Origin: Staphylococcus phage S6
Sequence record: LC680885.1
Strand: one strand, 5' to 3'
DNA length: 64,000 bases
Shown here: piece after piece, positions 21,524 to 56,195 of the stretch
How positions within the stretch are numbered: the first letter of the stretch is position 1
Layout: each line of letters opens with the position of its first letter
Made by a program: the position numbers and the translations under genes
Notes under the pieces: model-generated
The model's input: only the letters and a program-made list of their open reading frames with translations
The model's database searches: none
Told to the model about the DNA's origin: nothing

Positions 21524-22078
21524 ATGGATGTTAAAAAAACGTTTAATGCAGATATTATGGAGACAGATAGAAGAATTTTCTATAACATTATTAACGTAGA
21601 AATGTCTCTTAGTGATAAAAGAAAAATGTATAATAAAGTCAATGATGAAAATGAGGTTTTAACATATGTATTTGATAGTTACACAGATTACGTATTGATG
21701 GAAAATGAAGGTATAATGACTATGGCAAAAGATTTAAATGATTTCATTAAACATTCTATTTTCGATTACCATTTTTCCTCTTTAATAAAACAATTTTTAC
21801 CTTCGACCAACTTCCGGAATTTTGGAGATTTTGTCCTTATGTTAGAAAGAGAATTATTTGCACCTAATCAAGAAACTTTAAGTCAATTCTCTTCAAAAGA
21901 TGATATAATTTATGTGTACTATAATACTACTCTAAATAAAATAATTATTGTTGATCACATTATGTACTTAAAAGCACTAATGGAGTACGTTAAAGAAGAA
22001 AAAGATTTCTATGAAGATTTATATATAGAATTTGAAAAAGAAGTTAAAAAATATTTAGTTGAAAATAACTTTAAATAG
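21524..22078 (+). CDS. Hypothetical protein
   Basis: SD aaaggagaaattaaagATG. Confidence 0.6.
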   Translation: MDVKKTFNADIMETDRRIFYNIINVEMSLSDKRKMYNKVNDENEVLTYVFDSYTDYVLMENEGIMTMAKDLNDFIKHSIFDYHFSSLIKQFLPSTNFRNFGDFVLMLERELFAPNQETLSQFSSKDDIIYVYYNTTLNKIIIVDHIMYLKALMEYVKEEKDFYEDLYIEFEKEVKKYLVENNFK

Positions 22079-26523: not shown

Positions 26524-26970
26524 ATGAAATATTATAAGGTTAATTATAATGGTATATTGAAAATATTGAATCTAGATGATTTTGAAGATGATAGAATTAT
26601 TGAAACACTTAGTAATATTGAGTTATATTTAAAAGAAGATGAAGAAATTAGATTATTGGATTTATTTAAAAAGCCAACTATAGCAATGGACACTCGAATT
26701 ACAAAAGAAAGAGATAACCTTTATATGAATGGTCATCTCTTTTTAGAAGTTGAGAATGCATCATGTAAACTATGGAGTTACCATATTAATTTAAATGGTG
26801 ACGAAACATTAAATGAAATATATGAAAGGATATATAACGGATACGATAAAATTTTCTCTTTTAATAAAATGAGAGAAGATGGTCTATTATTTTTATATGA
26901 ATATGAACATTATACAGAAATATCTGAAAAAGAATATAAAGAAAATAAGGTTAAAGAAAATTTTAAATAA
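26524..26970 (+). CDS. YK-tail family member A1 (MKYY... ...SEKEYKENKVKENFK)
   Basis: Conserved N-terminus MKYYK.N..GI and C-terminal tail shared with 13 other ORFs. Confidence 0.6.
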   Translation: MKYYKVNYNGILKILNLDDFEDDRIIETLSNIELYLKEDEEIRLLDLFKKPTIAMDTRITKERDNLYMNGHLFLEVENASCKLWSYHINLNGDETLNEIYERIYNGYDKIFSFNKMREDGLLFLYEYEHYTEISEKEYKENKVKENFK

Positions 26971-26988
26971 AAAAGGAGATTTTAAATT

Positions 26989-27441
26989 ATGAAATATTAT
27001 ATTTTAACACAACAGGGGATTGCTGAAGTTTTAGGTATTGATAGTGAATCGGTTTATTGCTATAGAAATTTATTTAGAGATGATGAATTATATTTAAAAG
27101 AAGATGAAGAAATTAAATTTTCAGAAATTATTACTAATCAAACACCGGATATAGAATACAAAGTTGTTGGAACAAATAAAGATACCGTAACAGTGATAGC
27201 TTATATGGAAATAGATTTAGGTGAAGGAGATTATCATCAAATTGGATCTTGCAGAATGAAATTAGATAAAGATAGAACTCTAGAAGAAGTATACAATATT
27301 GTATATGAGAAAATGTCCAATAGAACTTTTTCATTCAATAAAGCTAAAGAAATGGGTATATCTTTATATGAAGAGAGTGATTATGAAGAAGTATCTAAAA
27401 AAGAATATAAAAAATACAAAGTAGAGAATAATTTTAAATAA
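26989..27441 (+). CDS. YK-tail family member A2
   Basis: SD aaaaggagattttaaattATG. C-terminal tail SKKEYKKYKVENNFK. Confidence 0.6.
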   Translation: MKYYILTQQGIAEVLGIDSESVYCYRNLFRDDELYLKEDEEIKFSEIITNQTPDIEYKVVGTNKDTVTVIAYMEIDLGEGDYHQIGSCRMKLDKDRTLEEVYNIVYEKMSNRTFSFNKAKEMGISLYEESDYEEVSKKEYKKYKVENNFK

Positions 27442-27461
27442 TGGAATGAGTTGTTATTGTT

Positions 27462-27941
27462 ATGGAAAAATATTATAGATTAACTTTAGAGGGTGTTAGT
27501 TTTATTTTAAATGATTGTGAAGAAAACGATATAGTTAAATCAACTTATAATGAAGATGAAAATTATGTACATTTAGAATCTTTATTAAATGTAGGAATGC
27601 CTTATGAAACTATATATTTTAAAGATAGACATAAAATAGTATTTAAAGAAAATGAAAATATATTCAAGACATTGATAAATTCAATTAAAAATAAATATTA
27701 TGACTTTGATGATAAAAATATGGAATTTCAAGTAGGCATTGGTGATGATGAAATAAAGGTCAAATCACCGATGCCAGTATTTTCTAAAGTGAATATATTT
27801 AATTTTAAAGTTAATAAAGAAATGGACATTATTGATTTTATGGACAATTATAAAATTAATGTATTAATTAAAGATAAGCATTACATTGAAATTACTGAAA
27901 AAGAATATAAAAATATTATAATTAAAAATACATTTAAATAA
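27462..27941 (+). CDS. YK-tail family member A3
   Basis: Tail TEKEYKNIIIKNTFK. Confidence 0.55.
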   Translation: MEKYYRLTLEGVSFILNDCEENDIVKSTYNEDENYVHLESLLNVGMPYETIYFKDRHKIVFKENENIFKTLINSIKNKYYDFDDKNMEFQVGIGDDEIKVKSPMPVFSKVNIFNFKVNKEMDIIDFMDNYKINVLIKDKHYIEITEKEYKNIIIKNTFK

Positions 27942-27957
27942 TAAGGAGATTTTATAA

Positions 27958-28416
27958 TTGAAATATTATGAATTTAATAAAAAAGGAATTATTAAAATAT
28001 TAGGATTAGATACAGCTTATTTAAGAGAAGATGAAGATATTTTTAGAGAAGGAAATCTTTATTTAAAAGAAAATGAATCAATAAAAATAAAAGATATTAT
28101 AACAAATAAAAAAGATATGAAATTTAATTGCAGTCTTTATGAAGGATCTGAAGATAGCTCATTAATGAAAGCTAATTTAACTTTCAGACATGGGTCAGGG
28201 CAACTTTTATTGAATATTGAATATATTGATTTAAAAGAAATAAAAGATCACACTGTTGAAGAAGTTTACAAATACGCTAAAGATTTAGTTTTAAATAAAA
28301 CATTTTCTTTTAATAAAGCTGAAGAGCTTGGTATATGTTTATATGAAGGAAAAGAATATGAAGAAATTACTGAGGAAGAATATAAAAAATACAAAGTAGA
28401 AAATACTTTTAAATAA
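27958..28416 (+). CDS. YK-tail family member A4 (TTG start)
   Basis: aaggagattttataaTTG. Tail TEEEYKKYKVENTFK. Confidence 0.55.
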   Translation: MKYYEFNKKGIIKILGLDTAYLREDEDIFREGNLYLKENESIKIKDIITNKKDMKFNCSLYEGSEDSSLMKANLTFRHGSGQLLLNIEYIDLKEIKDHTVEEVYKYAKDLVLNKTFSFNKAEELGICLYEGKEYEEITEEEYKKYKVENTFK

Positions 28417-28436
28417 TGAAATGAGGTGTTATTGTT

Positions 28437-28886
28437 ATGGACAAATATTATAAATTAACAGCGGAAGGTATATTTGATGTTTTCAAATTAGATAAAAAAC
28501 ACATTATATTCCCAGAAGATAAAAATACAATAATAGATTTCAGATCAAAGGAAGAACGTATAGAGAAAATTAATGAACTTATATACTTTAAAGATAATCA
28601 AGAAATAACAATAAACTCATTATCTAATTTAACAGACAATATCGTAATAGATAAATCAGGTTCTAAATATACATTTAACCATTTAATAGAAATATCATTC
28701 ACTACTTTTAGTCATAAAAAAAGATATAACAAAACAATCAATGTACCGAATGTATTTAAAGGAACTGTAAGAGAAAATAGTAGTAGAAGTGCCTTAGATA
28801 TACCGATAGATATCAACAATATTGATAAAATAGAATTAACATTTAAAGAATATAAAGATCTAGTAATAAAAGAAACTTTTAAATAA
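28437..28886 (+). CDS. YK-tail family member A5
   Basis: Tail TFKEYKDLVIKETFK. Confidence 0.55.
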   Translation: MDKYYKLTAEGIFDVFKLDKKHIIFPEDKNTIIDFRSKEERIEKINELIYFKDNQEITINSLSNLTDNIVIDKSGSKYTFNHLIEISFTTFSHKKRYNKTINVPNVFKGTVRENSSRSALDIPIDINNIDKIELTFKEYKDLVIKETFK

Positions 28887-28902
28887 TAAGGAGATTTTAT
28901 AA

Positions 28903-29352
28903 TTGAAATATTATAAATTAAATAAGGATGGTTATATTAAATTTTTAGGGTTAGATGTTTTGCCTGGACTTAAAACCTCAATTGTTGAAAAAGAAATAAA
29001 AAATAAAAACTTCATTGTCAAATATTGCAATGGAGCAGATTTTTGTTTTACATTAGATGAAATTAATAAAATGAAAAACAAAGATATTTACCCTAAACTT
29101 GGATTTGAAAGTCTAACTGAAAAAGTTAATCATGAAATAGAAAATAATCCAATAGTATTTGTTAATAGAAAATATGAAGATGCTAAAGCTTTAATTCATG
29201 TAGATTTAATTATTAATAATGAAGAAACTACATTAATGACTATGCCAAGATTTAATATTAATTTTTTAAATCATAATTTGTATATGGAACACTTTGATGA
29301 AATAACAGAGAAACAGTATAAAAATATTATGGTAAAAGATTCATTTAAGTAA
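28903..29352 (+). CDS. YK-tail family member A6 (TTG start)
   Basis: Tail TEKQYKNIMVKDSFK. Confidence 0.55.
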   Translation: MKYYKLNKDGYIKFLGLDVLPGLKTSIVEKEIKNKNFIVKYCNGADFCFTLDEINKMKNKDIYPKLGFESLTEKVNHEIENNPIVFVNRKYEDAKALIHVDLIINNEETTLMTMPRFNINFLNHNLYMEHFDEITEKQYKNIMVKDSFK

Positions 29353-29367
29353 AACTCAATTTAAATA

Positions 29368-29377
29368 TATATTATAA
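29368..29377 (+). promoter_or_regulatory. TATATTATAA motif
   Basis: Exact 10-mer, then hairpin gaaagatgtat...atacatctttc. Confidence 0.35.
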
Positions 29378-29446
29378 AATTGTGAAAGATGTATGATACT
29401 TATACATCTTTCTAAAATATTTATTTAAAGAGAGGTGAAAAAGATA

Positions 29447-29863
29447 ATGAGTTCTAATTTTGATTATTATATATTGCAATCGAGTATTTCAGAAGCTAGA
29501 AAAAGGATTAAGAATAATCTAGATGTAAATGGATATATGGTTATAAGACAAATATTTTTCAGTCATTTAGATTATAAAGATTATTATAATATGTATCATA
29601 AAGTAAATAATGTAGAAGATTATTACAATGATATTATATTAGAAAGTATTAAGGATATTATATTTGATGAAGAAGGTAAACTTAATGAAGAAGTAGCATT
29701 TAGTTTAATTAGAGGTTCTAATTCGAATATATGTGCTTTAATTAAAGATAATAAAGGCAATTACAAAATTTATAAAAAAGATAAATATGTAATTAAAGCT
29801 ATAGAAGATTTATTATCTGAGAAAGATTATAAAAGAATATTGGTTAAAAATACTTTTAAATAA
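29447..29863 (+). CDS. YK-tail family member A7 (divergent N-terminus)
   Basis: SD agaggtga followed by ATG 29447. Tail SEKDYKRILVKNTFK. The track starts at GTG 29435. Confidence 0.5.
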   Translation: MSSNFDYYILQSSISEARKRIKNNLDVNGYMVIRQIFFSHLDYKDYYNMYHKVNNVEDYYNDIILESIKDIIFDEEGKLNEEVAFSLIRGSNSNICALIKDNKGNYKIYKKDKYVIKAIEDLLSEKDYKRILVKNTFK

Positions 29864-31123: not shown

Positions 31124-31125
31124 TT

Positions 31126-32325: not shown

Positions 32326-32334
32326 TGATATAAT
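32326..32334 (+). promoter_or_regulatory. Extended -10-like element TGaTATAAT upstream of the RNAP beta-N/beta'-N operon
   Basis: tatgatataat lies ~100 nt upstream of TTG 32435, in a divergent intergenic region. No TATATTATAA motif on the plus strand here. Confidence 0.3.
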
Positions 32335-32434
32335 ATTGTTATGGAATTTCATAGTTGTAAAAAAATAATTTTTTGCAATAACTTAAATTTTTATATGGTT
32401 TCGAATTTTTAATTATAAGGAGAGTCAGATATCG

Positions 32435-41521: not shown

Positions 41522-41698
41522 ATGTTAGAATTAAATGGAATTGAATTTGTAAATGAAAAGGAAATTAAAGAAGAGGAATTATTATTTAATTATTCAGATG
41601 AAGCAAGATATCCATCTGAACAGGCTTATAGAGAAGTAGATTTAATCATTGAGAGCTTCGACAATACAGCTTTCGGATTAAGAAAATGGGGAGTGTAA
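41522..41698 (+). CDS. Small acidic protein (58 aa), not in the track
   Basis: SD aaaaaggagaaattaaaATG. Confidence 0.4.
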   Translation: MLELNGIEFVNEKEIKEEELLFNYSDEARYPSEQAYREVDLIIESFDNTAFGLRKWGV

Positions 41699-41703
41699 TT
41701 AAA

Positions 41704-42009
41704 ATGGTCAGAGAAGAAAAAATCAAACAAATGAAACAAGAATTACAAGCAATTTTAGACAAAGAAATTAGGTTTAATGGTAAACCAATTTCAAATAAAC
41801 AATTTGAGAGAAAATTAGAACTAATGAAACAAATAGAAAAGTTAAAATTTGACATTAGATCAGAAAGATATCTGAGAAATGTCAAAAAGAATAAAATCAC
41901 TGAGTTTAAGGGTAAAAGTGATTATGCGAAAGCAGGAAGACTACATCAATCTTTCCAAAGTAAAGAAGAGCATAAAATATGGAAAGAAGATTTATTAGTA
42001 ATTCAATAA
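41704..42009 (+). CDS. Small basic protein, paralog of 40881..41195
   Basis: The track start 41686 lies inside the upstream ORF. ATG 41704 follows aaaatggggagtg. Confidence 0.5.
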   Translation: MVREEKIKQMKQELQAILDKEIRFNGKPISNKQFERKLELMKQIEKLKFDIRSERYLRNVKKNKITEFKGKSDYAKAGRLHQSFQSKEEHKIWKEDLLVIQ

Positions 42010-42641: not shown

Positions 42642-43148
42642 ATGAAAAAATTATTAATGACATTAGCATCAATCGCTTTAATCGCAGTTATCGGAGCAGC
42701 AGGGATATTTGGTTATAGTAGTTTTAAAAGCTTAACAGTCAATAAAGAAGATAGTAAGACTGAAGAAGTATCTAAAAAGAAAGAAGACAAAAAAGAAAAG
42801 AAAGAACAAGAAGAATCAGATAATGTAGAAGTAAATCAACAACAAGATCAAACTCAAGAAGTAAATAATAATGAACGACAAAATCAAACTACAGAAGATA
42901 ATAATACAAATGTACAACAAAATCAACAACAAGAACCAGTAGTTGAAGAGAAAACTCAAGTAACAGATAATGAAGGTAATAATATAGATGATATGGATTC
43001 AGAAGAATTTATTTCTAAATATACGGAAGGAATGGATGAAGAAGAAGCTCAAACAGTAAAAGACATGGCTGAAGAAGATTCAGGATATGAAGATTTCTTA
43101 CGTGGACAAGTAGAAGCTAGACAAAACGGACAAGGCGGAAATTACTAA
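42642..43148 (+). CDS. Membrane-anchored Q/N/E-rich protein, paralog 1 of 3
   Basis: MKKLLMTLASIALIAVIGAAGIFGYSSFK signal anchor, then a low-complexity acidic/Q-rich region. Confidence 0.6.
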   Translation: MKKLLMTLASIALIAVIGAAGIFGYSSFKSLTVNKEDSKTEEVSKKKEDKKEKKEQEESDNVEVNQQQDQTQEVNNNERQNQTTEDNNTNVQQNQQQEPVVEEKTQVTDNEGNNIDDMDSEEFISKYTEGMDEEEAQTVKDMAEEDSGYEDFLRGQVEARQNGQGGNY

Positions 43149-43171: not shown

Positions 43172-43639
43172 ATGAAAAAAATCTTAAGTATTTTAACAGC
43201 GATAGCTTTAATCACAGTTATCGGAGCAGCAGGAGTATTCGGCTATAGTAGTTTTAAAGAATTAAATAATAGTAAAGATAGTCATAAAGTTGAAACAAGT
43301 AAAAAACAAAAAGAATCAGATGATAAAAATAACACTCAACAACAAGAACAAAATACATCAAAAGAAAACAACAATATCCAACAACAATCAAATGAAGATA
43401 GCCTAACAGAAAATATGGATGAAGAATATAAAAAACAACAGGAAATGTATGAAAGGCAATCAAAAGATGAAGCTCCAGAACCGGATTCTATAATTGGCAA
43501 CCCACCAAAAAATTATGAAACTCCAGAAAAAGATAAAATAACTATAAGTGAGTTAAGAGAAGTTTTAGGCGATGATATTGATGAAAGTAAAATTGATGAA
43601 GCAAAAGCGTCTGGCGAATATATTAATGATGAAGAATAA
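43172..43639 (+). CDS. Membrane-anchored Q/N/E-rich protein, paralog 2 of 3
   Basis: MKKILSILTAIALITVIGAAGVFGYSSFK. Confidence 0.6.
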   Translation: MKKILSILTAIALITVIGAAGVFGYSSFKELNNSKDSHKVETSKKQKESDDKNNTQQQEQNTSKENNNIQQQSNEDSLTENMDEEYKKQQEMYERQSKDEAPEPDSIIGNPPKNYETPEKDKITISELREVLGDDIDESKIDEAKASGEYINDEE

Positions 43640-43670: not shown

Positions 43671-44147
43671 ATGAAAAAATTATTAGTATCATTATCAATC
43701 TTAGCAGTAATTGTAGTATTAGTAGCGGCAGGTGTGTTTGGATATTCAAAATATAAAGAAGTAGAAATGAAACAACAGAATTTAGAAACACAATTAGAAG
43801 AAAAAAATTCCAATGAGCAAACTAATGAAAACGATCAACAACAAGAACAAGCAAATACAAATGAATCTCAAAATCAAGAAAATAGTTCAACAAAAAACAA
43901 TAACGACAATAAACAAAAAGTATCTAGAGACAATGTATTTGACTATGCTTTAGCTGCAGTAAATGAAGTAGGTGACGCTGATTTAATGAAATTCCAAGAA
44001 CCTTCTTACAGTGATGGTGTATGGACAATTGACACTAATAATAAATCTGGTTCAGGATCTAATACTATAAAAGTATACGATGATGGCTGGGTACAGATAT
44101 ATGATGGATCTGGTGAAATAGCTCATGAAACAAAAATAGAACTATAA
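43671..44147 (+). CDS. Membrane-anchored Q/N/E-rich protein, paralog 3 of 3
   Basis: MKKLLVSLSILAVIVVLVAAGVFGYSKYK. Confidence 0.6.
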   Translation: MKKLLVSLSILAVIVVLVAAGVFGYSKYKEVEMKQQNLETQLEEKNSNEQTNENDQQQEQANTNESQNQENSSTKNNNDNKQKVSRDNVFDYALAAVNEVGDADLMKFQEPSYSDGVWTIDTNNKSGSGSNTIKVYDDGWVQIYDGSGEIAHETKIEL

Positions 44148-45196: not shown

Positions 45197-45206
45197 TATA
45201 TTATAA
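45197..45206 (+). promoter_or_regulatory. TATATTATAA motif
   Basis: Then hairpin gagattaataa...ttattaatctc. Confidence 0.35.
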
Positions 45207-47226: not shown

Positions 47227-47853
47227 ATGAGAAAAACAGTAAATCTATTTGATTGGTATATCTATAAAAATGGAGAATATACATTGATTCCTTACTTCTT
47301 CAGATTAGCTTCAGGATTATTAATATTAATTGTATTCTCATCTTTAACTGTAATTAATATTAAATTATCTTTTATATCATTAATGGTAACAATTCCAACA
47401 TTTTTGATAATTAATCTATTAATTTATTTATATTTTAATAAAAATTGTCTTAGAGAATATGGAGAAATAAATAAATCTTTTAAAGTGAAAGATAAATATT
47501 ATTCTTTTTGGTATATTGAATTAAATGAAGATAATGAGGTTTTTAAAGAAGCTTTTAATAATTTTAAAAATGAACACGAATGGATTATAGAAGAAGAAAA
47601 TATAAAAAATCTATCAGAAATACTGTCACAAAAATTTTTTATAAAAGACACTAAAATAGTAGAGACTGTAGCGAGAGAAAAAAGAAAACATTGGAAGAAC
47701 AATATTGACACTAATAGACTGATAACTTATAGAGAGTTTCTTAAATATAGAAAGAATAAAAAGAAATTTGAAGAGTCTAAGAAGTTAGAAAAGGAAATAA
47801 AAGAGTTTCAAGATTATTACAATTTAAACACTAAAGGAGAAATTAAAAAATGA
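47227..47853 (+). CDS. Membrane-anchored protein
   Basis: SD aaagagaggtaatttcATG. TM segments in the N-terminal half. Confidence 0.55.
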   Translation: MRKTVNLFDWYIYKNGEYTLIPYFFRLASGLLILIVFSSLTVINIKLSFISLMVTIPTFLIINLLIYLYFNKNCLREYGEINKSFKVKDKYYSFWYIELNEDNEVFKEAFNNFKNEHEWIIEEENIKNLSEILSQKFFIKDTKIVETVAREKRKHWKNNIDTNRLITYREFLKYRKNKKKFEESKKLEKEIKEFQDYYNLNTKGEIKK

Positions 47854-48314
47854 ATACTAAAATAATCGCAGCATTTCCGGGTACAGGTAAATCTTACATC
47901 AAAAATAATATCTCATTCTTAAAAACATCTGATTCAGATTCAACTAGTTTTTCATGGATAATTAAAGATGGAGAAAAAGTTAGAAATCCTAAATTTCCAA
48001 CGAATTATATTAGTTATATTAAGGATCTCTATTATAAAAATGTAATGGATTATATTTTCGTATCAACTCATAAAGAAGTTATCCAAGAGTTGATTGATAA
48101 TAATTTAGAATTTGTAGTAGCTTATCCAAAACGTTCAGATAAAGAATTATATTTAAAGAGATACAAAGAAAGAGGTTCAGATAGTAAATTTATTGAGCTT
48201 CTTGATAATATGTTTGATAGTTTTATAGATGATATAGAGAATAGAGTTCCTGAAGAAAACAGAATTGAACTTAATCATAATGAATATTTAGCTAACGTAT
48301 TAGATAAAATTTAA
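47850..48314 (+). CDS. P-loop NTPase/kinase-like protein
   Basis: Walker A IIAAFPGTGKSY near the N-terminus. ATGA overlap with the upstream gene. Confidence 0.4.
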   Translation: MNTKIIAAFPGTGKSYIKNNISFLKTSDSDSTSFSWIIKDGEKVRNPKFPTNYISYIKDLYYKNVMDYIFVSTHKEVIQELIDNNLEFVVAYPKRSDKELYLKRYKERGSDSKFIELLDNMFDSFIDDIENRVPEENRIELNHNEYLANVLDKI

Positions 48315-48331
48315 ATAAGGAGAAATTAAAA

Positions 48332-48790
48332 ATGAGATACTTTAAAGGTATAGTAGCAGGAAAAGACTTTTTCTTAAAAGCAGATAATGAAGAAAATGCC
48401 ATTAAGGAATTAGCATCAAAAGAAATTAATTCTATAGGATCTTTTACAATGTTAAGTAATGAAAAACAGAAATACCTAATAATTTTCTTTAATGAAGATG
48501 AAGATAAATTTGTTGTTGGAAATGGATTAGAATCATATATATCATTAGACAGTCTTAAATCTGAATTAGAATCTAAAGATTTAGAATGTTATTATTTAGA
48601 TTTAGGTAATACAGATAATATCGAGATAAACGGTATTATAAAAAATCAAGAATACACATTAACAGAAATAATAATGGAAAGTATTAAATTAACTATGAAT
48701 GATTTTTATCAACAAGTTATAAATTCTGTATTAACTGAATTAACTGAAAAAGAATACAAAAATTCAATAGTTGTTAAAAATTTTAAATAA
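48332..48790 (+). CDS. YK-tail family member B1
   Basis: Tail TEKEYKNSIVVKNFK. Confidence 0.55.
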   Translation: MRYFKGIVAGKDFFLKADNEENAIKELASKEINSIGSFTMLSNEKQKYLIIFFNEDEDKFVVGNGLESYISLDSLKSELESKDLECYYLDLGNTDNIEINGIIKNQEYTLTEIIMESIKLTMNDFYQQVINSVLTELTEKEYKNSIVVKNFK

Positions 48791-48809
48791 CTAGGAAGGA
48801 ATAAAAATA

Positions 48810-49280
48810 GTGAGAAATAAAAAAAGAAGCATAGATAGTTTGATAAATAATAATCTAGAATTACCAATTGAGATTACTGAAAATTATATAAATAATTTTA
48901 TATACAAATCATTAACTGCTATAAATAAGAAAAAAGAAATAAAACCAAATCAAACTTATATAATTAATCATAAGAATGAATTATTTAATAAAGCAGATAA
49001 TTTCATAAATTGTATTTTAGAATTATTAAAAGGTGATGTGGGTACTTTAATAGATAAAAAAGATTTAAAGTTAAAAAGAAATGTAAAGAAAGACAATATA
49101 AGTAATTGTCTTACAATATATACTATTGTAGAAACTTTAACTTACAATAATTCTATAACAATGATGATGGTAAAAAATGTAAATAATACCAATAAGGAAG
49201 TAACTGGTGAACTAATATTTGATATTAATATAAGTGATAAATTAGGTAAAGATAATTACAATGAAAATATTTATATTTAA
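48810..49280 (+). CDS. Hypothetical protein (GTG start)
   Basis: ggaaggaataaaaataGTG. Confidence 0.4.
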   Translation: MRNKKRSIDSLINNNLELPIEITENYINNFIYKSLTAINKKKEIKPNQTYIINHKNELFNKADNFINCILELLKGDVGTLIDKKDLKLKRNVKKDNISNCLTIYTIVETLTYNNSITMMMVKNVNNTNKEVTGELIFDINISDKLGKDNYNENIYI

Positions 49281-49294
49281 TTACTATTTAAATA

Positions 49295-49306
49295 TATATT
49301 ATATAA
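49295..49306 (+). promoter_or_regulatory. TATATTATaTAA variant motif
   Basis: Intergenic; ~25 nt upstream of the SD. Confidence 0.3.
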
Positions 49307-49341
49307 ATGAAGTTAATTAAAATACAGGAGATGAATTGGAT

Positions 49342-49683
49342 ATGTTAAACGATACTAAAAAGATTTTAGACAGAATATACGACAAAATAAATGGTGATTT
49401 AATTGTTATTTCAGAGTGTAAAGATCTATTTGATAAGGAATTAAATTACACTTTAACTGAAGGTAATGAAGAAACAACAAATCTTGATTATTTGGCAGAT
49501 TCTTTAATTGTAGTTGCTTCAGATATATTTACTTTAAAAGAAGTACTTAATATTGACGAAGAAACTATTAATAATGAACTATTAGCAGAATTTAAACTAA
49601 GCTATAGAATGATACAAAATTTTCATATGAAATTAGAATTAAATAGTTATAAATTAAAAAAGATTAAAACCTCGGTTGAATAA
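49342..49683 (+). CDS. Hypothetical protein
   Basis: SD ggagatgaattggatATG. The track start is TTG 49336. Confidence 0.55.
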   Translation: MLNDTKKILDRIYDKINGDLIVISECKDLFDKELNYTLTEGNEETTNLDYLADSLIVVASDIFTLKEVLNIDEETINNELLAEFKLSYRMIQNFHMKLELNSYKLKKIKTSVE

Positions 49684-49702
49684 ATATAGGAGATGATTAG
49701 GA

Positions 49703-50188
49703 ATGAATTATTTAAAGAATGAAAAAGGGGAGGTCTTTCCAGTCAATGAAGAAGGAATGGAGAATATTATATTCTTTCTTCTAGACTACTCACAGAAAAA
49801 TGATTATAACACAATGAATTTGATTAAAGAGATAAATGATCACGTGATGAAAGGCGAAAATATAAGTAATAAATTTATTAATGAAAAGACAAAAGAAACG
49901 ATATTAACATTAGGTAAAGTAAAAGGTAATTTAACTAATGAATTAGCTAGAAGTGGTTATATAGTTAATTTCTCTAGAAATAAAATATCACTATCGATAT
50001 ATGTAAAAAATAATAGTTTTAAATTAGTAAGAATTTCAGATCATAATATTAATAAAAAAATAAATAAAAAAGGTGTAATCAGTAATAGATTTGACGGACA
50101 ATTAGTATGTAAAAATAATCTAGTTAAATCTTCTGATTTGAAAAAGCATGGAATTGATATTAATGAAGGAATATATTATTTAGAATAG
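49703..50188 (+). CDS. Hypothetical protein
   Basis: SD taggagatgattaggaATG. Confidence 0.55.
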   Translation: MNYLKNEKGEVFPVNEEGMENIIFFLLDYSQKNDYNTMNLIKEINDHVMKGENISNKFINEKTKETILTLGKVKGNLTNELARSGYIVNFSRNKISLSIYVKNNSFKLVRISDHNINKKINKKGVISNRFDGQLVCKNNLVKSSDLKKHGIDINEGIYYLE

Positions 50189-50201
50189 GATGAAACTATA
50201 T

Positions 50202-50483
50202 ATGAAAAAGATAATAATGTTTTTAGGTATTTTGTTACTAACAACGGTATTGGTCGGTTGTGGAGAAAGTGTTGATTCAAAAGATAAAAAAGATTCAATC
50301 AAAACAGTAACTATTTATAGTAAAGACGGTAAAGTATTACATCAATATGAAGGAAAAGTTAGTGCTGAGAGAGTAACGGATAACAAATTTACTAAAATTG
50401 ATATAGACGGTAAGAAATTAAGAGTTGTAAATGCAGATGTAGTTATTGAAGAGAAAGGTATTGAGAAATTTGAAACAAAATAA
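50202..50483 (+). CDS. Lipoprotein
   Basis: Lipobox VLVGC|GES. The track start 50190 lies in the SD region (aggATGaaactatatATG). Confidence 0.6.
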   Translation: MKKIIMFLGILLLTTVLVGCGESVDSKDKKDSIKTVTIYSKDGKVLHQYEGKVSAERVTDNKFTKIDIDGKKLRVVNADVVIEEKGIEKFETK

Positions 50484-50494
50484 AGATTAAGTAT

Positions 50495-50504
50495 ATATTA
50501 TAAT
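50495..50504 (+). promoter_or_regulatory. TATATTATAA motif
   Basis: tatattataattatgaagaaagatatt..atatctttc hairpin. Confidence 0.35.
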
Positions 50505-50560
50505 TATGAAGAAAGATATTATCATATATCTTTCTAATAAAATTAATGGAGGAATTTGTT

Positions 50561-50857
50561 ATGGCAAAATTAAATGAAGAAGTATTAAGAGACTTTCAAG
50601 TAAAAACTGAAATTGATGGAGAATTTGAAGTAATGGAATCTGATGAGCTTGGTGTTGATGAAGCTTATGAAATTGAATTAATTAAAGAATTGGGATTAGA
50701 TGTCGATTCAAGTGTATTCTCTTATGCAATATCAGAAAAAGATGATGAAGAAAATACGTATACTTTAGAATATAGTCATGAAGGCGTTCTATTAACTATT
50801 CATGATATCGATTTTGAAAATGGTATTCATGATACTATTTATAAAAATGTAATTTAA
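50561..50857 (+). CDS. Small acidic protein
   Basis: aATGGAGGaatttgttATG. The track start 50546 is the ATG in the SD. Confidence 0.5.
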   Translation: MAKLNEEVLRDFQVKTEIDGEFEVMESDELGVDEAYEIELIKELGLDVDSSVFSYAISEKDDEENTYTLEYSHEGVLLTIHDIDFENGIHDTIYKNVI

Positions 50858-50867
50858 TGATTTAAGT

Positions 50868-50917
50868 ATAGCTGATATCTTTAACGGATATCAGCTATAT
50901 TATTTTTATTTTTTTAC
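50868..50917 (+). terminator. Rho-independent terminator
   Basis: Stem atagctgatatc/gatatcagctat followed by attatttttatttttttac. Confidence 0.75.
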
Positions 50918-50940
50918 TTAAAGGAGATGAAAAGGATAAT

Positions 50941-51552
50941 ATGAATTATTTTGAATTGGAATATACAGGTTTAATTAATAATAATAAATTAGATAATCTA
51001 GTTCTACACAAACAAGAAAATGAAGAAATTGAATCGGGTGTTTTAAATATGGTTTTATTTAAATTGTATCTAAAAGAATTCTATAATGATAATATGGATG
51101 ATAATGATTTATGTAAGAAACTAAAAATGGAAATAAGAAGTATTCATAGTTATAATAATTCAGAAATTTATATTAATGAAGACTTTGCTGAAATATATGA
51201 TGGTATTAATCCGAATAATAATATTAAATCAGGAAAAATAAATAAAGATTATGAATATTTATTTAAATTTATTAAAGATAATATAAATGAAAAAGATTTA
51301 AATAATATACATGTGATTAAATTTACAACATTTGAAATAGAGAAATATAAACCTGTTGTGATTTTTATAAACTCAGATAAACTTAGAATTAAGACCAATA
51401 AATCAATTAGTAGATATACATCAACAAATGAATTTGTATTCTATAATATTTCAAGCGAAAGTTTATATACATTAATGAAAAATACAAATAGAATAAGAAA
51501 TATAACGGAAAAAGAATATAAAAAAGAATTAGTTAAAAGGAGTTTTTTATAA
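50941..51552 (+). CDS. YK-tail family member B2
   Basis: Tail TEKEYKKELVKRSFL. Confidence 0.55.
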   Translation: MNYFELEYTGLINNNKLDNLVLHKQENEEIESGVLNMVLFKLYLKEFYNDNMDDNDLCKKLKMEIRSIHSYNNSEIYINEDFAEIYDGINPNNNIKSGKINKDYEYLFKFIKDNINEKDLNNIHVIKFTTFEIEKYKPVVIFINSDKLRIKTNKSISRYTSTNEFVFYNISSESLYTLMKNTNRIRNITEKEYKKELVKRSFL

Positions 51553-52100
51553 TGTATGAAGTTAATAAAAAATTTAAATATGCTAAAAGAGATAAAGAAT
51601 TCACATTATTCCACCATAAATCAAAAGAAAAAATAACTGATTCATTTATAATTAATAATTATATTTCATATGTATTATATCAATGCTACGAAAGAACACC
51701 AGGAAATGCAGAAGTTTGGTTGGAAATTAATGATATAAATAATATAAAAGGTGATTTCTTATTTAAATTTATGTTTGACAACAGACCTTCTTTTGGTTCT
51801 AATTATTTTCCTAAGTGTAAATTAAATATACAAGATAACAGTGATAATAATATTGTAACTATTGAATTTAGTGATAAATATAAAAGACATAATTTTATTC
51901 TAGAAGAAATATCTAAATTTAATAATGTTCATATTAATTTTTATGAAGAAGTATTATTTACTAATGAAGATGAAGAATTCAAGTTATTAAAGAATGTATT
52001 TAAAACTGATAACATTAAATATTACCAAAATAAAGATTTAATTAGTTATATTTCAGACAAAGAAGCTAGAAAAATTTTAGTAAAAGAAAACTTTAAATAG
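51552..52100 (+). CDS. YK-tail family member B3
   Basis: Tail SDKEARKILVKENFK. ATG overlaps the upstream stop. Confidence 0.55.
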   Translation: MYEVNKKFKYAKRDKEFTLFHHKSKEKITDSFIINNYISYVLYQCYERTPGNAEVWLEINDINNIKGDFLFKFMFDNRPSFGSNYFPKCKLNIQDNSDNNIVTIEFSDKYKRHNFILEEISKFNNVHINFYEEVLFTNEDEEFKLLKNVFKTDNIKYYQNKDLISYISDKEARKILVKENFK

Positions 52101-52116
52101 AATAGGGGCAAATAAA

Positions 52117-52650
52117 TTGAATAAATATTTTAAATTTAAATTAAATAATAAAAGTGATTACGATGTATTTAAATTTTCAGGAAATGAAGAAGAAATAAGC
52201 GATTCTAAAATTATAGAGTCTTATTTTGATTATATGTTTAATTATTATATAAATGAAGCAATACCTGACTCCAGTATGATTAATATTGCTGTATTTACTG
52301 AAGGTAAAAGAAAAAGATTATTGAGATTTACTATAGATAAACCACCAATTTATATAAAAGAGCCAGTTAGTACTTTATTTATGAATGAAAATGATGAAGA
52401 TAAACAAATTAATTTTAAAGAATTTAACGAAATTAAAAAATTTATACACGAAAAGATTATGGAATTGAATAAAGGTGAATTTTATATTTATATTGATTAT
52501 AATTTTGATTATTCTTATAGAATAGATTACGATGATGTATTTGATAAAATATTATTTAATAAAAATAATCTAAATCTTTATTCATCATTTATTAAAGAAA
52601 CAGATGAAAATGAATATAAAAATTATCTAGTAAGAGAGAATTTTAAATAA
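52117..52650 (+). CDS. YK-tail family member B4 (TTG start)
   Basis: Tail DENEYKNYLVRENFK. Confidence 0.5.
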   Translation: MNKYFKFKLNNKSDYDVFKFSGNEEEISDSKIIESYFDYMFNYYINEAIPDSSMINIAVFTEGKRKRLLRFTIDKPPIYIKEPVSTLFMNENDEDKQINFKEFNEIKKFIHEKIMELNKGEFYIYIDYNFDYSYRIDYDDVFDKILFNKNNLNLYSSFIKETDENEYKNYLVRENFK

Positions 52651-52667
52651 GGAAGTGAGACAGATAA

Positions 52668-53444
52668 ATGGAATATGTTATGATAAATAAATTATTAACA
52701 AAAAATGATTCATCTGAATTAAAAATAAACATGGTTAAACTATATAAAGAGGAAGAAGACTTTTTCAATTTCTTTTTAAACTTTATTATAGAATATAATT
52801 CATATTATATAGGAAATTATAAATACTTTTATAGTATAGATTCATTATCAGATTATAATTCAGATTATCAAATAAATGGAAATCCTTATGTGCCATTTGA
52901 GGAAGGGATAAAGGTAAATGAAGTCATTCATATTTATAAAAATAAATTATTTAGGAATATAAGTAAAGATATTGAAAATAGAATAACCGTACTTTATGTA
53001 GAAGACAAAGAAGACGATATTTCCTATTATATATTAATATCTAATTACTTTAATAAAAAATTTAAAAAAGAATATAAAGAAGAACTTCCCGATAAAGAAA
53101 AATTGTTAGCTAGACTTATAGTAAGATCCTTTCTAAATGAAAAAATTTTATTAGATTCACATTCAGAATTTTTAGTTATTAAAGATAAAGAAAAATTGAA
53201 TAATTTAATTAATAATTTAATGAAAAATCAAAAATACAAAATTTTAAATTTTGATTTCTTAAGTAATAGGGAATTAAAATATAATGGAGTAATATTTAAT
53301 ACAAATTTATATGATAATAAACTAATCCTGAAGTATTTAAAAGGAATAGACTACAAAGATATTATTAATAAAGATAAAGAAAAAATTACGTTTATAAATG
53401 AAAAAGGATATAAAAAACTAGCATTGAAAGAATCATTTAAATAA
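52668..53444 (+). CDS. YK-tail family member B5
   Basis: Tail NEKGYKKLALKESFK. Confidence 0.5.
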   Translation: MEYVMINKLLTKNDSSELKINMVKLYKEEEDFFNFFLNFIIEYNSYYIGNYKYFYSIDSLSDYNSDYQINGNPYVPFEEGIKVNEVIHIYKNKLFRNISKDIENRITVLYVEDKEDDISYYILISNYFNKKFKKEYKEELPDKEKLLARLIVRSFLNEKILLDSHSEFLVIKDKEKLNNLINNLMKNQKYKILNFDFLSNRELKYNGVIFNTNLYDNKLILKYLKGIDYKDIINKDKEKITFINEKGYKKLALKESFK

Positions 53445-53522
53445 ATAATAAATATTCTCATCCATTCATTATATAATAACTTTTAATTATATAATAATTT
53501 TTAGAATGGATGAGATGCTTTT

Positions 53523-54182
53523 ATGAGTAATTATTTATATCGTTTTAACAAAGAGAATGTAAATATCTTCTATCATAAAAGGACTAATAATGGTCATAAA
53601 ATGTTATTTAATAATAGTAATGATAAAGATAGATCTATATACTTAATAAATACTGATGAAGAAATCAATAATATGGAACTAGTATCTAAATATATTGCTG
53701 GAAAAGTATTTGAAATACTAAACCAAGAAAATATGAAAATAGTACATATGGATTTCTTTAATAGTAAATTAGAATTCTTTATAAGTAGATCATCCAAGAA
53801 TAAATATATAATGAATATGTATTTTAGTTTAAAAAGTTATAATGATCTAATAGAAAATGAAAAAGAATTTATAGATAGTGTTAATGAGCTTAATTTAGAC
53901 TTTTTAAAATCAGTTTCTTTAGATCAAGACAATAATCATGTATTAGATATGACATTAATATTTTTAATAGATAAAAATAAAATAGATGAATTTATTAAAA
54001 ATCTATTTTACATTAATTATGTAAAGATAATAGAATTTATAATAGATACTATATCAGTATATGCAGATGATTACAAGAAATTTAATGAAGAAATAAATAT
54101 TCTTTTGGATCATAGAAATTTTGTAGAGGAAATAACATATAAAGAATATAAAAAGATAATGACAAAAGAGATGTTTATTTAA
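53523..54182 (+). CDS. YK-tail family member B6
   Basis: Tail TYKEYKKIMTKEMFI. Confidence 0.5.
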   Translation: MSNYLYRFNKENVNIFYHKRTNNGHKMLFNNSNDKDRSIYLINTDEEINNMELVSKYIAGKVFEILNQENMKIVHMDFFNSKLEFFISRSSKNKYIMNMYFSLKSYNDLIENEKEFIDSVNELNLDFLKSVSLDQDNNHVLDMTLIFLIDKNKIDEFIKNLFYINYVKIIEFIIDTISVYADDYKKFNEEINILLDHRNFVEEITYKEYKKIMTKEMFI

Positions 54183-54195
54183 GGAGTAATTAACT

Positions 54196-54906
54196 ATGAA
54201 GATTTCAGCCAATAAAGAATTATTAGGAAAGAAAGTTATACCTTTAGGTTTTAAACAACTTAATAACTTATATAAAGATCATGATTATGTATATTTAAGA
54301 ATTCCTGAAATATTTAATGTATTTGATAAGTATCAATTTAAAGATGATAAATTTGTATATCTTAAAACAGAAATAAAACCCAGTACTATTGTAGATTTAA
54401 TAGATTCTTTATCAAGTGGTTTTAATTGGTTAATAAATGAATATATTTCTAATGATATACTAAATATACATTATATAAAGAAAAATTTATTAGACATTTC
54501 CAATAGTGAATATAAAACTCTAGAAGAAACAAGATCTCAGTTAGATTTAGAATTAGAATTCATAAGTAGTAATGAAAAACAAAGAAAGCAATCTAATATT
54601 TTAATAAAGGATATTCATAAAGAAATAAATTATATAAGGAATGAATACACAAAAGTATTCACTCTTAAGAAAAGTAAAACCAGAAATAATAAACCAATAA
54701 AAATAAAAATTAGAAATTTATATGATGAAGATCCAATATCTATATTAAAAATAATATTAGACTTAGGAGAAGAATATTGTATGAATAGTACTATATTTAA
54801 CGCATTTACTTATTCATTAATGTTAACAAATAATTTAGATTTCATAGACGAAAAAGAATTTCAGGATATAGTTAAGAAAGAGAAAGTGAAAAATACTTTC
54901 ATTTAA
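54196..54906 (+). CDS. YK-tail family member B7
   Basis: Tail EKEFQDIVKKEKVKNTFI. Confidence 0.5.
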   Translation: MKISANKELLGKKVIPLGFKQLNNLYKDHDYVYLRIPEIFNVFDKYQFKDDKFVYLKTEIKPSTIVDLIDSLSSGFNWLINEYISNDILNIHYIKKNLLDISNSEYKTLEETRSQLDLELEFISSNEKQRKQSNILIKDIHKEINYIRNEYTKVFTLKKSKTRNNKPIKIKIRNLYDEDPISILKIILDLGEEYCMNSTIFNAFTYSLMLTNNLDFIDEKEFQDIVKKEKVKNTFI

Positions 54907-54915
54907 AACATTATT

Positions 54916-54972
54916 CATATAGTTTGAGGAAATTTTCCTCAAACTATATGAATTATTTTATTTTTTTTTCTA
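54916..54972 (+). terminator. Rho-independent terminator
   Basis: Stem catatagtttgagga/tcctcaaactatatg followed by aattattttatttttttttc. Confidence 0.75.
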
Positions 54973-55103
54973 AAAATATAAACTAATTTATATTAATAAT
55001 TTTTATAATGTATCATTCACTTAGTCGCAAATATTTATTTATTTTAAGAACATAAATTTTATATCAAATAATATAGAATTTTTAAAAAGGAGAATTTAAT
55101 TTT

Positions 55104-55667
55104 ATGGAAAAATATGATAAATTAACTGAAGAATTAGAAGCTTTATATGAGCAATCTCAAGAAGAAGCTCTAGAAGAACAGTTCGAAAGCATTATCGAAT
55201 CAACTGATGAAGATAAAGCAGAAGAAGTTGAAGATAAAGATTCTAAAGAAGATTCAGACGAAGAAGAAACATCTGTTGAAGAACAATTTAACAGTATCTT
55301 AGAATCAGAAGATGAAGAATCTGATGAGGAAGAAGATGACGAAGATTCAGAAGAAGAACCGGTTGAAGAATCTGATGAGGAAGATTCAGAAGACGATTCA
55401 GAAGATGATGAAGATTCTTTAGAAGAAGAATTAAATCGTTTATTTGAAGAAAATGAAGACCCAGAAATGGATGTCGAAAAGCAAACTACAAAAGCTAATG
55501 ACATGAACTCAAAAAAATCATCTGACTCTACTGAACATCCTGAAGAAGATGTGAAAAAAATCACTTCAGAAGATGAAGACGAAGAAGAAGATGCTGAAGA
55601 TGACGAAGAAGAATCTACTAATGAAGATGAATCATTAGAAGAATCATTAGATCGTATCTTTGGTTAA
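55104..55667 (+). CDS. Extremely acidic Asp/Glu/Ser-rich protein with internal repeats
   Basis: SD aaaaggagaa. Repeats EEQF(E/N)SI(I/L)ES(T/E)DE... and runs of D/E. Confidence 0.6.
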   Translation: MEKYDKLTEELEALYEQSQEEALEEQFESIIESTDEDKAEEVEDKDSKEDSDEEETSVEEQFNSILESEDEESDEEEDDEDSEEEPVEESDEEDSEDDSEDDEDSLEEELNRLFEENEDPEMDVEKQTTKANDMNSKKSSDSTEHPEEDVKKITSEDEDEEEDAEDDEEESTNEDESLEESLDRIFG

Positions 55668-55688
55668 TTATTAATTAATCTTTAAAAT

Positions 55689-55737
55689 ATCCCCTAACCT
55701 TATTAATTTAAGGTTAGGGGATTAATATTGTATTTTT
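55689..55737. terminator. Bidirectional terminator at the strand-switch point
   Basis: GC-rich stem atcccctaacct/aggttaggggat followed by taatattgtatttttt. It lies between convergent genes. Confidence 0.75.
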
Positions 55738-56195
55738 TATCTGAAATAATTAGTATTATCAGTCATTTTTCTTCCAAAAGCATCTAGTCCATCTAATGGA
55801 TTAACTTTATCTCCAGTTGTTTTAAAATCATCTCCACCATAAGTGCCGCTAAAATTTGTATCTACGCCTTTAGATAATTCTTCACTCATTTTATTTAAGT
55901 GTCTTACTCTTTCAACTTTTCTCTGATAATAGTCTTCTGCTTCTTGTTGAGATTTTAATCTATTTTCATCAATAGTTTCGTTATCTTTTAATTTAGTTAC
56001 TGGAGTAAAACCATCCATAACTACATAAAATTTATCAATTTGATCCTGATAAATAAAAGGTATTTTAGTTTTTAAATGTAAAGTAGTTGGTTCATCTTCA
56101 TACTGTAATGTCTCATATTCAAGTATATTACCTTCTTTATCGACAGTGACAGATATATCCATCATAATTTCTTCTTTTTTCTTTTCTTCTGACAA
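55737..56195 (-). CDS. Hypothetical protein (start uncertain)
   Basis: Minus-strand ORF. Alternative start at the internal MMD. Confidence 0.45.
   Translation of the reverse strand: MSEEKKKEEIMMDISVTVDKEGNILEYETLQYEDEPTTLHLKTKIPFIYQDQIDKFYVVMDGFTPVTKLKDNETIDENRLKSQQEAEDYYQRKVERVRHLNKMSEELSKGVDTNFSGTYGGDDFKTTGDKVNPLDGLDAFGRKMTDNTNYFR

What the first reader, a model, noticed from the sequence alone, without database searches (positions are those of the whole stretch)
48332..54906. Array B: seven more members of the same C-terminal-tail family, larger and more divergent, 20 kb away from array A
ORFs 48332 (TEKEYKNSIVVKNFK), 50941 (TEKEYKKELVKRSFL), 51552 (SDKEARKILVKENFK), 52117 (DENEYKNYLVRENFK), 52668 (NEKGYKKLALKESFK), 53523 (TYKEYKKIMTKEMFI) and 54196 (EKEFQDIVKKEKVKNTFI) carry the same tail on unrelated bodies of 150-260 aa. 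This makes 14 family members in one 64 kb window, about 10% of the coding capacity, on proteins whose bodies differ. This argues the tail itself is the selected unit.
Basis: seen in the sequence. Interest (0 to 1): 0.8.

Follow-up and report, generated by a model that had tools for sequence, protein, structure and literature searches.

The report
Tail-tagged gene family in Staphylococcus jumbo phages
A giant Staphylococcus virus devotes about one gene in eight to an undescribed family of fast-evolving proteins whose only shared sequence is a 16-residue helix at the very end, which probably marks a set of early host-manipulation proteins.

Summary
Six of the seven ORFs (B1-B6) end in the same 16-residue tail as array A. 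B7 fits only if a four-residue insertion is allowed. A scoring matrix trained on array A alone finds B1-B6 and one more ORF (21524-22078), always flush with the stop codon. It finds nothing at 23,658 internal positions or with column-shuffled matrices. Synonymous codons vary, so selection acts on the protein.

The window is a Staphylococcus jumbo phage, 95-99% identical to vB_SauM-UFV_DC4. It has none in the Bacillus relative AR9 and none in any other collection searched. Members sit in same-strand tandem arrays, mostly behind predicted early promoters. None is among the 15 proteins detected in virions.

"Unrelated bodies" is overstated. B3 and B4 are homologous, as are A1, A2 and A4. Most other bodies are beyond sequence recognition.

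AlphaFold2 models of B4 and A4 both show the tail as a confident strand plus terminal helix. Neither model matches a solved fold.

Best reading: a clade-specific, tandemly duplicated family of early proteins with a constant C-terminal helix. Its function is unknown, and a common docking role is plausible but untested.

The parts
48332..48790 (+). B1, 152 aa family member. Tail LTEKEYKNSIVVKNFK at 48740-48787. It sits in an operon behind the early-promoter box at 45197.
   Evidence: 26.7 bits; E 3e-5. The Machias orthologue is 29% identical overall but keeps the tail ITEKEYKNNLIKDNFR.
50941..51552 (+). B2, 203 aa. Tail ITEKEYKKELVKRSFL at 51502-51549. The codons AAA AGG AGT also carry the ribosome-binding site of the overlapping B3.
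   Evidence: 26.4 bits; E 0.056. The Machias orthologue tail is INEKEYKNELIKRGFK.
51552..52100 (+). B3, 182 aa. Tail ISDKEARKILVKENFK at 52050-52097. Body is homologous to B4.
   Evidence: 22.7 bits; E 5e-5; hhalign B3 against B4, 86%, E 5e-6.
52117..52650 (+). B4, 177 aa. Tail TDENEYKNYLVRENFK at 52600-52647. AlphaFold2 model: alpha/beta body, with the tail as strand 159-162 plus helix 164-175.
52668..53444 (+). B5, 258 aa. Tail INEKGYKKLALKESFK at 53394-53441.
   Evidence: 19.0 bits; weak, E 0.5. Orthologue tails are more canonical: INEKEYKKLAVKESFK and VPEDEYKKIAVKESFK.
53523..54182 (+). B6, 219 aa. Tail ITYKEYKKIMTKEMFI at 54132-54179. It is the slowest-evolving member, 76% identical to Machias with dN/dS 0.06.
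   Evidence: 22.2 bits; E 0.053.
54196..54906 (+). B7, 236 aa, a probable divergent member. Tail IDEKEFQDIV-KKEK-VKNTFI at 54844-54903, with a 4-residue insertion of about one helical turn.
   Evidence: 8.2 bits ungapped; E 8.4, not significant; the insertion is conserved in orthologues.
50865..50901 (+). Intrinsic terminator hairpin upstream of B2. Its orthologue is annotated as a terminator in MarsHill.
54913..54953 (.). Bidirectional terminator hairpin directly after B7. It closes the B2-B7 unit.
26524..29863 (+). Array A, seven members of 142-159 aa with the same tail. AlphaFold2 model of the 27958-28416 member: tail as strand 134-137 plus helix 139-150. The left part (26537-27892) is replaced by one fused gene in DC4.
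21524..22078 (+). Tail EFEKEVKKYLVENNFK. It lies in the operon behind the early-promoter box at 19539.
   Evidence: 23.9 bits; E 1.5e-7.
45197..45204 (+). Predicted early (virion RNA polymerase) promoter box TATATTAT heading the operon that contains B1. Similar boxes lie at 49295 and 50494.
   Evidence: The consensus comes from the MarsHill paper.

Best explanation
Array B is part of a clade-specific multigene family of Staphylococcus jumbo phages. There are 14-15 members in this window, 33 in the DC4 genome and 20 in SA1.

The genes most likely arose by repeated tandem duplication. Their bodies then diverged quickly, mostly beyond sequence recognition. The last 16 residues stayed under strong constraint.

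Those residues form a short, self-capped alpha-helix preceded by a beta-strand. The pattern is: hydrophobic, then D/T/S, then E-K-E-(Y/I)-K-x-(Y/I/L)-(L/K/I)-(V/I)-(K/R)-x-(N/G/S/T)-F-K, then stop.

The proteins are non-virion and probably early, made from AR9-type early promoters by the virion-packaged RNA polymerase. By inference they act inside the infected cell in host take-over or counter-defence: the variable body would supply specificity, and the constant terminal helix would supply a shared structural or docking function.

Shown: the motif, its strict C-terminal position, protein-level selection, clade restriction, tandem clustering, fast body divergence, purifying selection, and confident helix models.

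Inferred: common descent of all members, early expression, and any role in host take-over or docking.
For: - Motif specificity and composition controls.
- Synonymous codon variation in the tail.
- Genome-wide census. DC4 has 33 of 260 ORFs, all on the + strand, and every hit of 17 bits or more lies at offset 0 from the stop. SA1 has 20. AR9 has none, with a best C-terminal score of -1.7 bits.
- A consensus-tail tblastn against 50,697 phage records hits only 8 Staphylococcus jumbo phages.
- Nothing real turns up in IMG/VR or in 596 Gb of bacterial and archaeal genomes.
- Profile searches find only orthologues from this clade.
- Tandem clustering: 23 adjacent family pairs against 4.1 expected. 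Detectable paralogy is between neighbouring genes.
- Copy-number turnover between near-identical phages.
- Orthologues of B1, B2, B4 and B5 are 28-33% identical to Machias, while neighbouring genes are 60-93% identical. The tail is better kept than the middle.
- dN/dS is 0.06-0.52, so these are real genes under somewhat relaxed purifying selection.
- AlphaFold2 gives strand plus terminal helix with pLDDT 81-95 in two unrelated-looking members.
- The tail logo shows helix-capping positions. The B7 insertion is one helical turn long.
- TATATTAT boxes head the operons that hold most members.
- None of the 15 proteins detected in DC4 virions is a member.
Against: - Common ancestry of all bodies is not demonstrated. 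Tail-trimmed phmmer and hhalign link only a few pairs.
- BFVD returns only B3/B4 orthologues.
- An N-terminal K-Y-Y hairpin motif shared by array A and the DC4 left-arm members does not separate array B from controls.
- B2-B7 has no early-promoter box of its own. It sits behind a terminator, so its timing is uncertain.
- There are no functional data of any kind. The virion proteome is shallow, at 15 proteins.
Confidence: 0.6

Rival explanations
1. The tail is a portable C-terminal address or docking peptide. Under this reading, unrelated or only partly related proteins carry the same terminal helix because a single phage or host hub reads it. That hub could be a chaperone, protease, polymerase, membrane site or packaging machine. 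The free C-terminus would be part of what is recognised.
For: - The motif is flush with the stop codon in every one of more than 50 members. No member carries even one extra residue, in a scan that did not assume position.
- Charged positions that would be exposed on a helix are among the best conserved: K-13, K-10, E-14, E-12 and K-1.
- Bodies are not alignable and show no shared fold in searches.
- In the DC4 fused gene, the tail that became internal has decayed.
Against: - No partner was identified.
- Tandem arrays and demonstrable paralogy of neighbouring genes point to duplication rather than repeated grafting.
- AlphaFold2 models the tail with high confidence together with a preceding strand, as expected for an integral element.
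- No host protein carries the motif, so mimicry of a host signal is unsupported.
- This rival overlaps with the best explanation. It differs on the origin of the bodies and on the tail acting in trans.
Confidence: 0.25
2. The members are virion-packaged (ejected) proteins, and the tail is a capsid-targeting or processing signal, by analogy with T4 internal proteins.
For: - These phages encode a T4-like prohead scaffold/protease (annotation).
- Some tails contain I-T-E, which resembles the T4 protease site L/I-x-E.
Against: - None of the 15 proteins found by LC-MS in DC4 virions is a member.
- The genes lie in early-promoter operons among replication genes, not in the structural modules on the opposite strand.
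- Most members read I-T-D-E-K, which breaks the L/I-x-E pattern.
- The T4 signal is N-terminal.
Confidence: 0.07
3. The similarity is an artefact. It could be low-complexity K/E composition in a 23% G+C genome, or a nucleotide-level element at gene ends such as a promoter, ribosome-binding site, terminator or gene-conversion tract.
For: - The genome is very A+T-rich, and the tail is rich in K, E and N.
- HMMER's bias correction pushes B5 and B7 below significance.
Against: - Column-permuted matrices give no hits.
- No internal position in the window reaches the scores of the C-terminal hits.
- Codons differ synonymously at V, T, S and L positions.
- Ribosome-binding sites lie after the stop codon, except in B2.
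- AR9 has similar composition (28% G+C) and no hit at all.
Confidence: 0.02

Closest known systems
Lineage-specific gene expansions in jumbo phages, for example the ~35-copy zinc-ribbon family of Bacillus phage G (Iyer et al. 2021, PMC7824862)
   Same: Tens of paralogues in one phage genome, restricted to one lineage, with unknown or regulatory function.
   Different: Here the members are 140-300 aa alpha/beta proteins whose bodies are mostly not alignable. Only a 16-residue C-terminal helix is shared. There is no metal-binding or other known domain.
Poxvirus ankyrin-repeat proteins with a C-terminal PRANC/F-box-like domain, and similar multigene families of large eukaryotic viruses (from my own knowledge)
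   Same: Many paralogues with a variable target-binding body and a constant C-terminal helical element. In poxviruses that element docks onto one host hub. The genes evolve fast and vary in copy number.
   Different: This is an analogy only. No ankyrin or F-box signal was found, the host is bacterial, the tail is much shorter, and no hub is known.
T4 internal proteins with a capsid targeting sequence (from my own knowledge)
   Same: A short terminal peptide shared by otherwise different phage proteins.
   Different: The T4 signal is N-terminal, is cleaved at L/I-x-E, and its carriers are found in virions. Here the motif is C-terminal, and no member was found in the virion proteome.
C-terminal peptide motifs read by hub proteins, such as sliding-clamp-binding tails and SsrA-type ClpXP tags (from my own knowledge)
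   Same: Strict dependence on the C-terminal position. A short conserved peptide sits on diverse proteins.
   Different: The sequence matches neither QL[SD]LF-type clamp motifs nor the non-polar ...LAA tags. The tail is predicted helical and charged, and ends in F-K.

Membership tests
Tail-defined multigene family of Staphylococcus jumbo phages (defined here) | 16-residue motif ending exactly at the C-terminus, with F at position -2 | tested here: met
   B1-B6 score 19-27 bits with a matrix trained on array A only, all at offset 0. B7 fits only with a 4-residue insertion.
Tail-defined multigene family of Staphylococcus jumbo phages (defined here) | Same-strand tandem arrays, with copy number varying between related phages | tested here: met
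   23 adjacent family pairs against 4.1 expected. LY01 and Machias lack one of B3/B4. A1-A3 are replaced in DC4.
Tail-defined multigene family of Staphylococcus jumbo phages (defined here) | Homology of the bodies (common descent of whole genes) | tested here: inconclusive
   B3~B4, A1~A2~A4 and three small DC4 clusters are homologous. All other pairs are indistinguishable from controls. Fold searches give no link.
T4-type capsid-targeted internal proteins | N-terminal targeting peptide cleaved at L/I-x-E, with the protein present in virions | tested here: not met
   The motif is C-terminal. Most tails lack L/I-x-E. No member is among the 15 virion proteins of DC4, although that dataset is shallow.
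SAP / HeH helix-extended-helix DNA-binding motif | About 35 residues forming two helices, matched by the Pfam SAP/HeH models | tested here: not met
   No such Pfam hit even at E up to 1. The protein ends after what would be the first helix.
F-box / PRANC C-terminal domain families | F-box-like domain of about 40 residues, detectable by profile | tested here: not met
   No Pfam, PHROGs, NCBIfam or PADLOC match.
Nucleotide-level repeat or regulatory element at gene ends | Conservation of the DNA sequence itself, including synonymous positions | tested here: not met
   V is encoded by GTT, GTA and GTG. T by ACT, ACA and ACG. S by TCT, TCA and AGT. L by TTA, CTA and TTG.
Known anti-defence or defence protein families | Profile match to a described family | tested here: not met
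Early genes transcribed by the virion RNA polymerase (AR9-type) | TATATTAT promoter upstream, with transcription in the first minutes of infection | tested here: inconclusive
   Promoter boxes head the operons of B1, ORF 21524-22078, A7 and 15 DC4 left-arm members. B2-B7 has only a terminator upstream. No transcript data are available.

The most novel reading that the evidence does not exclude
The 16-residue terminal helix is a phage-specific C-terminal address code. A single reader, either a phage or a staphylococcal hub protein, would recognise the capped helix together with the free carboxyl end. It would thereby gather, localise, time or destroy some 20-33 different early effectors. That would be a sorting or docking system of a kind not described for bacteriophages.
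Probability: 0.22. Interest if true: 0.78.

Novelty: new variant of a known kind. Interest (0 to 1): 0.55.

Why it matters
About 13% of the genes of a whole clade of Staphylococcus aureus jumbo phages belong to one family. These phages are candidates for therapy and for mastitis control. None of the genome papers I could search mentions the family.

The genes are probably early, evolve fast and vary in copy number between near-identical isolates. That is the signature expected of host-range, take-over or counter-defence factors.

The tail gives a one-line rule for finding every member. It also offers a single handle (peptide, antibody or tag position) for studying them together.

If the tail turns out to be read by a common partner, it would be a new type of phage protein-sorting signal. 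If it is only the conserved edge of a diverged fold, the family is still a clear case of how far tandem paralogues can drift while keeping one structural element.

Tried and rejected
1. Tail-only profile against the 5.8-billion-protein collection: no hit at E up to 10. The profile is too short for that database size.
2. Pfam, PHROGs, NCBIfam, PADLOC and PDB sequence searches: nothing meaningful.
3. Degenerate DNA patterns for the tail.
   - IMG/VR: 0 hits with the strict pattern. The loose pattern gave 102 stretches, each with a single match, all chance (matrix score 13 or below, mostly not in ORFs).
   - GTDB genomes: 3 chance hits, none in Staphylococcus.
4. Body homology with tails removed: only B3~B4 among the array-B members in the window, plus three small clusters in DC4.
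5. An N-terminal motif HMM built from array A and the DC4 left-arm members does not lift array B above non-family proteins. I therefore dropped the claim that a shared N-terminal hairpin extends to array B.
8. The prohead-protease cleavage-site idea (I-T-E) was rejected, because most tails read I-T-D-E-K.
9. Gene-wide positive selection: not seen. dN/dS stays below 0.55.
10. The AFDB50 fold library was not available. Model coordinates could not be inspected, so helix-to-body contacts are unverified.
Full report
**What the window is.** The window has about 23% G+C. Positions 48000-56000 are 99.7% identical to Staphylococcus phage vB_SauM-UFV_DC4 and 92-94% identical to PALS_2, Madawaska and MarsHill. 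They are about 79% identical to Machias, PB50 and AH12, over the roughly 40% of the query that aligns. Over its whole length the window is 95-98.5% identical to DC4, except for a replaced block at 26537-27892. These are AR9/PBS1-like jumbo phages with two multisubunit RNA polymerases (papers read).

**Checking the observation.** All seven ORFs and their quoted C-termini are present.

I trained a 16-column scoring matrix (PSSM) on the seven array-A tails only and scanned every stop-to-stop segment of 60 aa or more in all six frames.
- B1-B6 score 19-27 bits, and ORF 21524-22078 scores 23.9 bits.
- All of these hits end exactly at the stop codon.
- The best unrelated position of 23,840 scores 15.6 bits.
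- At a 19-bit threshold, 7 of 175 C-terminal windows pass and 0 of 23,658 internal windows pass.
- 200 column-permuted versions of the matrix give no hit anywhere, so K/E composition is not the cause.

The codons of the conserved V, T, S and L positions vary synonymously. This excludes a DNA-level element and recent gene conversion.

HMMER with bias correction, trained on DC4 members outside array B, is stricter. It gives B4 3.5e-9, B1 3e-5, B3 5e-5, B2 and B6 about 0.05, B5 0.5 and B7 8.4. Orthologues of B2 and B5 in other phages carry more canonical tails. B7 fits only with a four-residue insertion, which its orthologues also have. The insertion is about one helical turn long.

**The family is much larger than the finding.** I fetched the whole DC4 genome and scanned it without assuming any position.
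- Every hit of 17 bits or more lies at offset 0 from a stop codon, on the + strand.
- 33 of 260 ORFs qualify, which is 12.7% of genes and 7.8% of bases.
- These include long arrays at DC4 13.8-15.8 kb and 21.8-33.9 kb, which lie outside this window.
- Phage SA1, from S. lentus and the most distant relative, has 20 members in the same arrays.
- The nearest outgroup, Bacillus phage AR9, has none. Its best C-terminal score is -1.7 bits.

Searches elsewhere confirm the restriction to this clade.
- A 22-residue consensus tail searched by tblastn at E up to 10 against 50,697 phage records hits only eight Staphylococcus jumbo phages.
- Degenerate DNA patterns for the tail find only chance matches in IMG/VR and in 596 Gb of bacterial and archaeal genomes.
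- A profile of array B against 5.8 billion proteins returns 21 proteins, all orthologues from this clade.
- A B3/B4 profile against 1.84 billion cluster representatives returns four clusters of the same kind plus two long repetitive proteins.

None of the phage genome papers I could search mentions the family.

**Are the bodies unrelated?** With the last 20 residues removed, profile-profile comparison of orthologue alignments links only B3 and B4 (86%, E 5e-6, residues 6-124 against 5-118). All other family pairs score like family-versus-neighbour controls.

In DC4, tail-trimmed phmmer links only 5 of 528 family pairs at E below 1e-3, forming three small clusters of neighbouring genes. A1, A2 and A4 are also clear paralogues.

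So most bodies are beyond sequence recognition, but some are demonstrably related, and the related ones are adjacent. Family genes are strongly clustered: 23 adjacent family pairs against 4.1 expected, with a maximum of 11 in 10,000 permutations. Copy number also changes between close relatives. LY01 and Machias have one gene where the window has B3 and B4. A1-A3 are replaced in DC4 by one fused gene whose now-internal tail has decayed. Tandem duplication followed by divergence explains this more simply than repeated grafting of a tail onto unrelated genes.

**Evolutionary rates.** Between the window and Machias, B1, B2, B4 and B5 are 28-33% identical, while the non-family genes between them are 60-93% identical. 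Within those four, the last 16 residues are 50-69% identical and the middle is 25-34% identical.

Against MarsHill and LY01, dN/dS is 0.06-0.52 for family genes. Pooled values are 0.28-0.35 for bodies and 0.19-0.25 for tails, against 0.16-0.24 for neighbouring genes. These are real genes under somewhat relaxed purifying selection, with no gene-wide positive selection.

**Structure.** AlphaFold2 on B4, using orthologues plus B3 as the alignment, gives pLDDT 86 and pTM 0.81. The model is an alpha/beta protein in which the tail is strand 159-162 followed by helix 164-175, with block pLDDT of 95 and 81.

The array-A member 27958-28416 gives pLDDT 78 and pTM 0.70. Its tail has the same arrangement, strand 134-137 plus helix 139-150.

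A logo from 58 distinct tails reads: I/L/T, then D/T/S, E, K, E, Y/I/V/F, K/R, x, Y/I/L, L/K/I, V/I, K/R, x, N/G/S/T, F, K. From textbook helix-capping rules (my own knowledge) this looks like three features in one short helix:
- an N-cap with a capping box;
- a hydrophobic staple;
- a C-terminal N/G-plus-hydrophobic (Schellman-type) stop.

In other words, it is a short, self-capped helix.

**Expression context.** The MarsHill paper reports the AR9-type early promoter core TATATTAT upstream of 29 genes.
- In the window it occurs, in an extended conserved form, at 14 intergenic + strand sites 55-80 nt before start codons. These include the operons containing B1 (45197), ORF 21524-22078 (19539) and A7 (29368).
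- In DC4, three such boxes head operons of 4, 5 and 6 family genes.
- B2-B7 lies between two strong terminator hairpins, 50865-50901 and 54913-54953, which are also annotated in MarsHill. It has no box of its own, so its timing is less certain.
- None of the 15 proteins detected by LC-MS in DC4 virions is a family member, though that dataset is shallow.

**Interpretation.** The best-supported account is a clade-specific, tandemly expanded family of intracellular, probably early proteins. Their bodies diversify rapidly while a terminal capped helix is held constant. The closest known kind is the lineage-specific expansions noted in other jumbo phages, such as the ~35-copy zinc-ribbon family of phage G. 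The analogy with poxvirus families that pair variable bodies with a constant C-terminal docking domain is suggestive only.

- the absolute requirement that the motif end at the C-terminus;
- the conservation of charged helix positions;
- the decay of a tail that became internal.

Nothing here identifies a partner, and the high-confidence strand-helix models are equally compatible with an integral structural element.

The packaging-signal rival is weakly disfavoured. The artefact rival is refuted for B1-B6.

Noticed in passing
window 1901, 2693, 16681, 19539, 29368, 31112, 37147, 39199, 39504, 40538, 41238, 45197, 49295, 50494 (+ strand): The early-promoter core TATATTAT sits in a longer conserved box (roughly AAATATATATTATAAAAATGAGGTAATG), 55-80 nt before start codons. 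The conserved part downstream of the core is not described in the paper text I read.
   Followed up: partly
window 51535-51552: The B2 tail codons AAA AGG AGT contain the ribosome-binding site (AAGGAG) of B3, whose start overlaps the B2 stop. This probably explains why the B2 tail departs from the consensus (..VKRSFL).
   Followed up: partly
window 26537-27892, compared with DC4 171879-172710: The first three array-A genes are replaced in the otherwise 95-98% identical DC4 genome by a single 297-aa gene. It looks like two family units fused, and its internal tail has decayed to VTEEEYKKYKGELIMN.
   Followed up: partly
window 55104-55667: A 187-aa extremely acidic (D/E/S-rich) protein directly follows array B. 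MarsHill annotators noted only a ribosome-assembly HHpred match. It could be a DNA or protein mimic.
   Followed up: no
window 42642-43148, 43172-43639, 43671-44147: Three adjacent ORFs of about 155-168 aa form another tandem paralogue set. Their DC4 counterparts match one another at phmmer E 1e-10 to 1e-15. They lack the tail.
   Followed up: no
window 40881-41195 and 41686-42009: Two small ORFs share a ..KAGRLH.. region near their C-terminus. Each lies downstream of one of two similar early-promoter boxes (40538, 41238), which suggests a duplicated promoter-plus-gene cassette.
   Followed up: no
window 4974-5021 (ORF 4455-5051): This is the best non-family matrix hit (15.6 bits): VTKKDYDKIKEGDTVK, ending 9 residues before the stop. 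It could be chance or a decayed relative of the tail.
   Followed up: no
DC4 13811-15817, 18235-18831, 21815-33880 (L001): Most family members lie outside the window, in left-arm arrays with the variant tail TDEKEIKKYLVKNNFK. Most of them also share an N-terminal K-Y-Y-K..(k)-x-G/D-E-I-F-E-V motif with array A.
   Followed up: partly
window 47850-48314: The ORF just upstream of B1 has a Walker-A-like motif (AAFPGTGKS). It is among the most conserved genes of the region, 93% identical to Machias, in contrast to its family neighbour at 29%.
   Followed up: no
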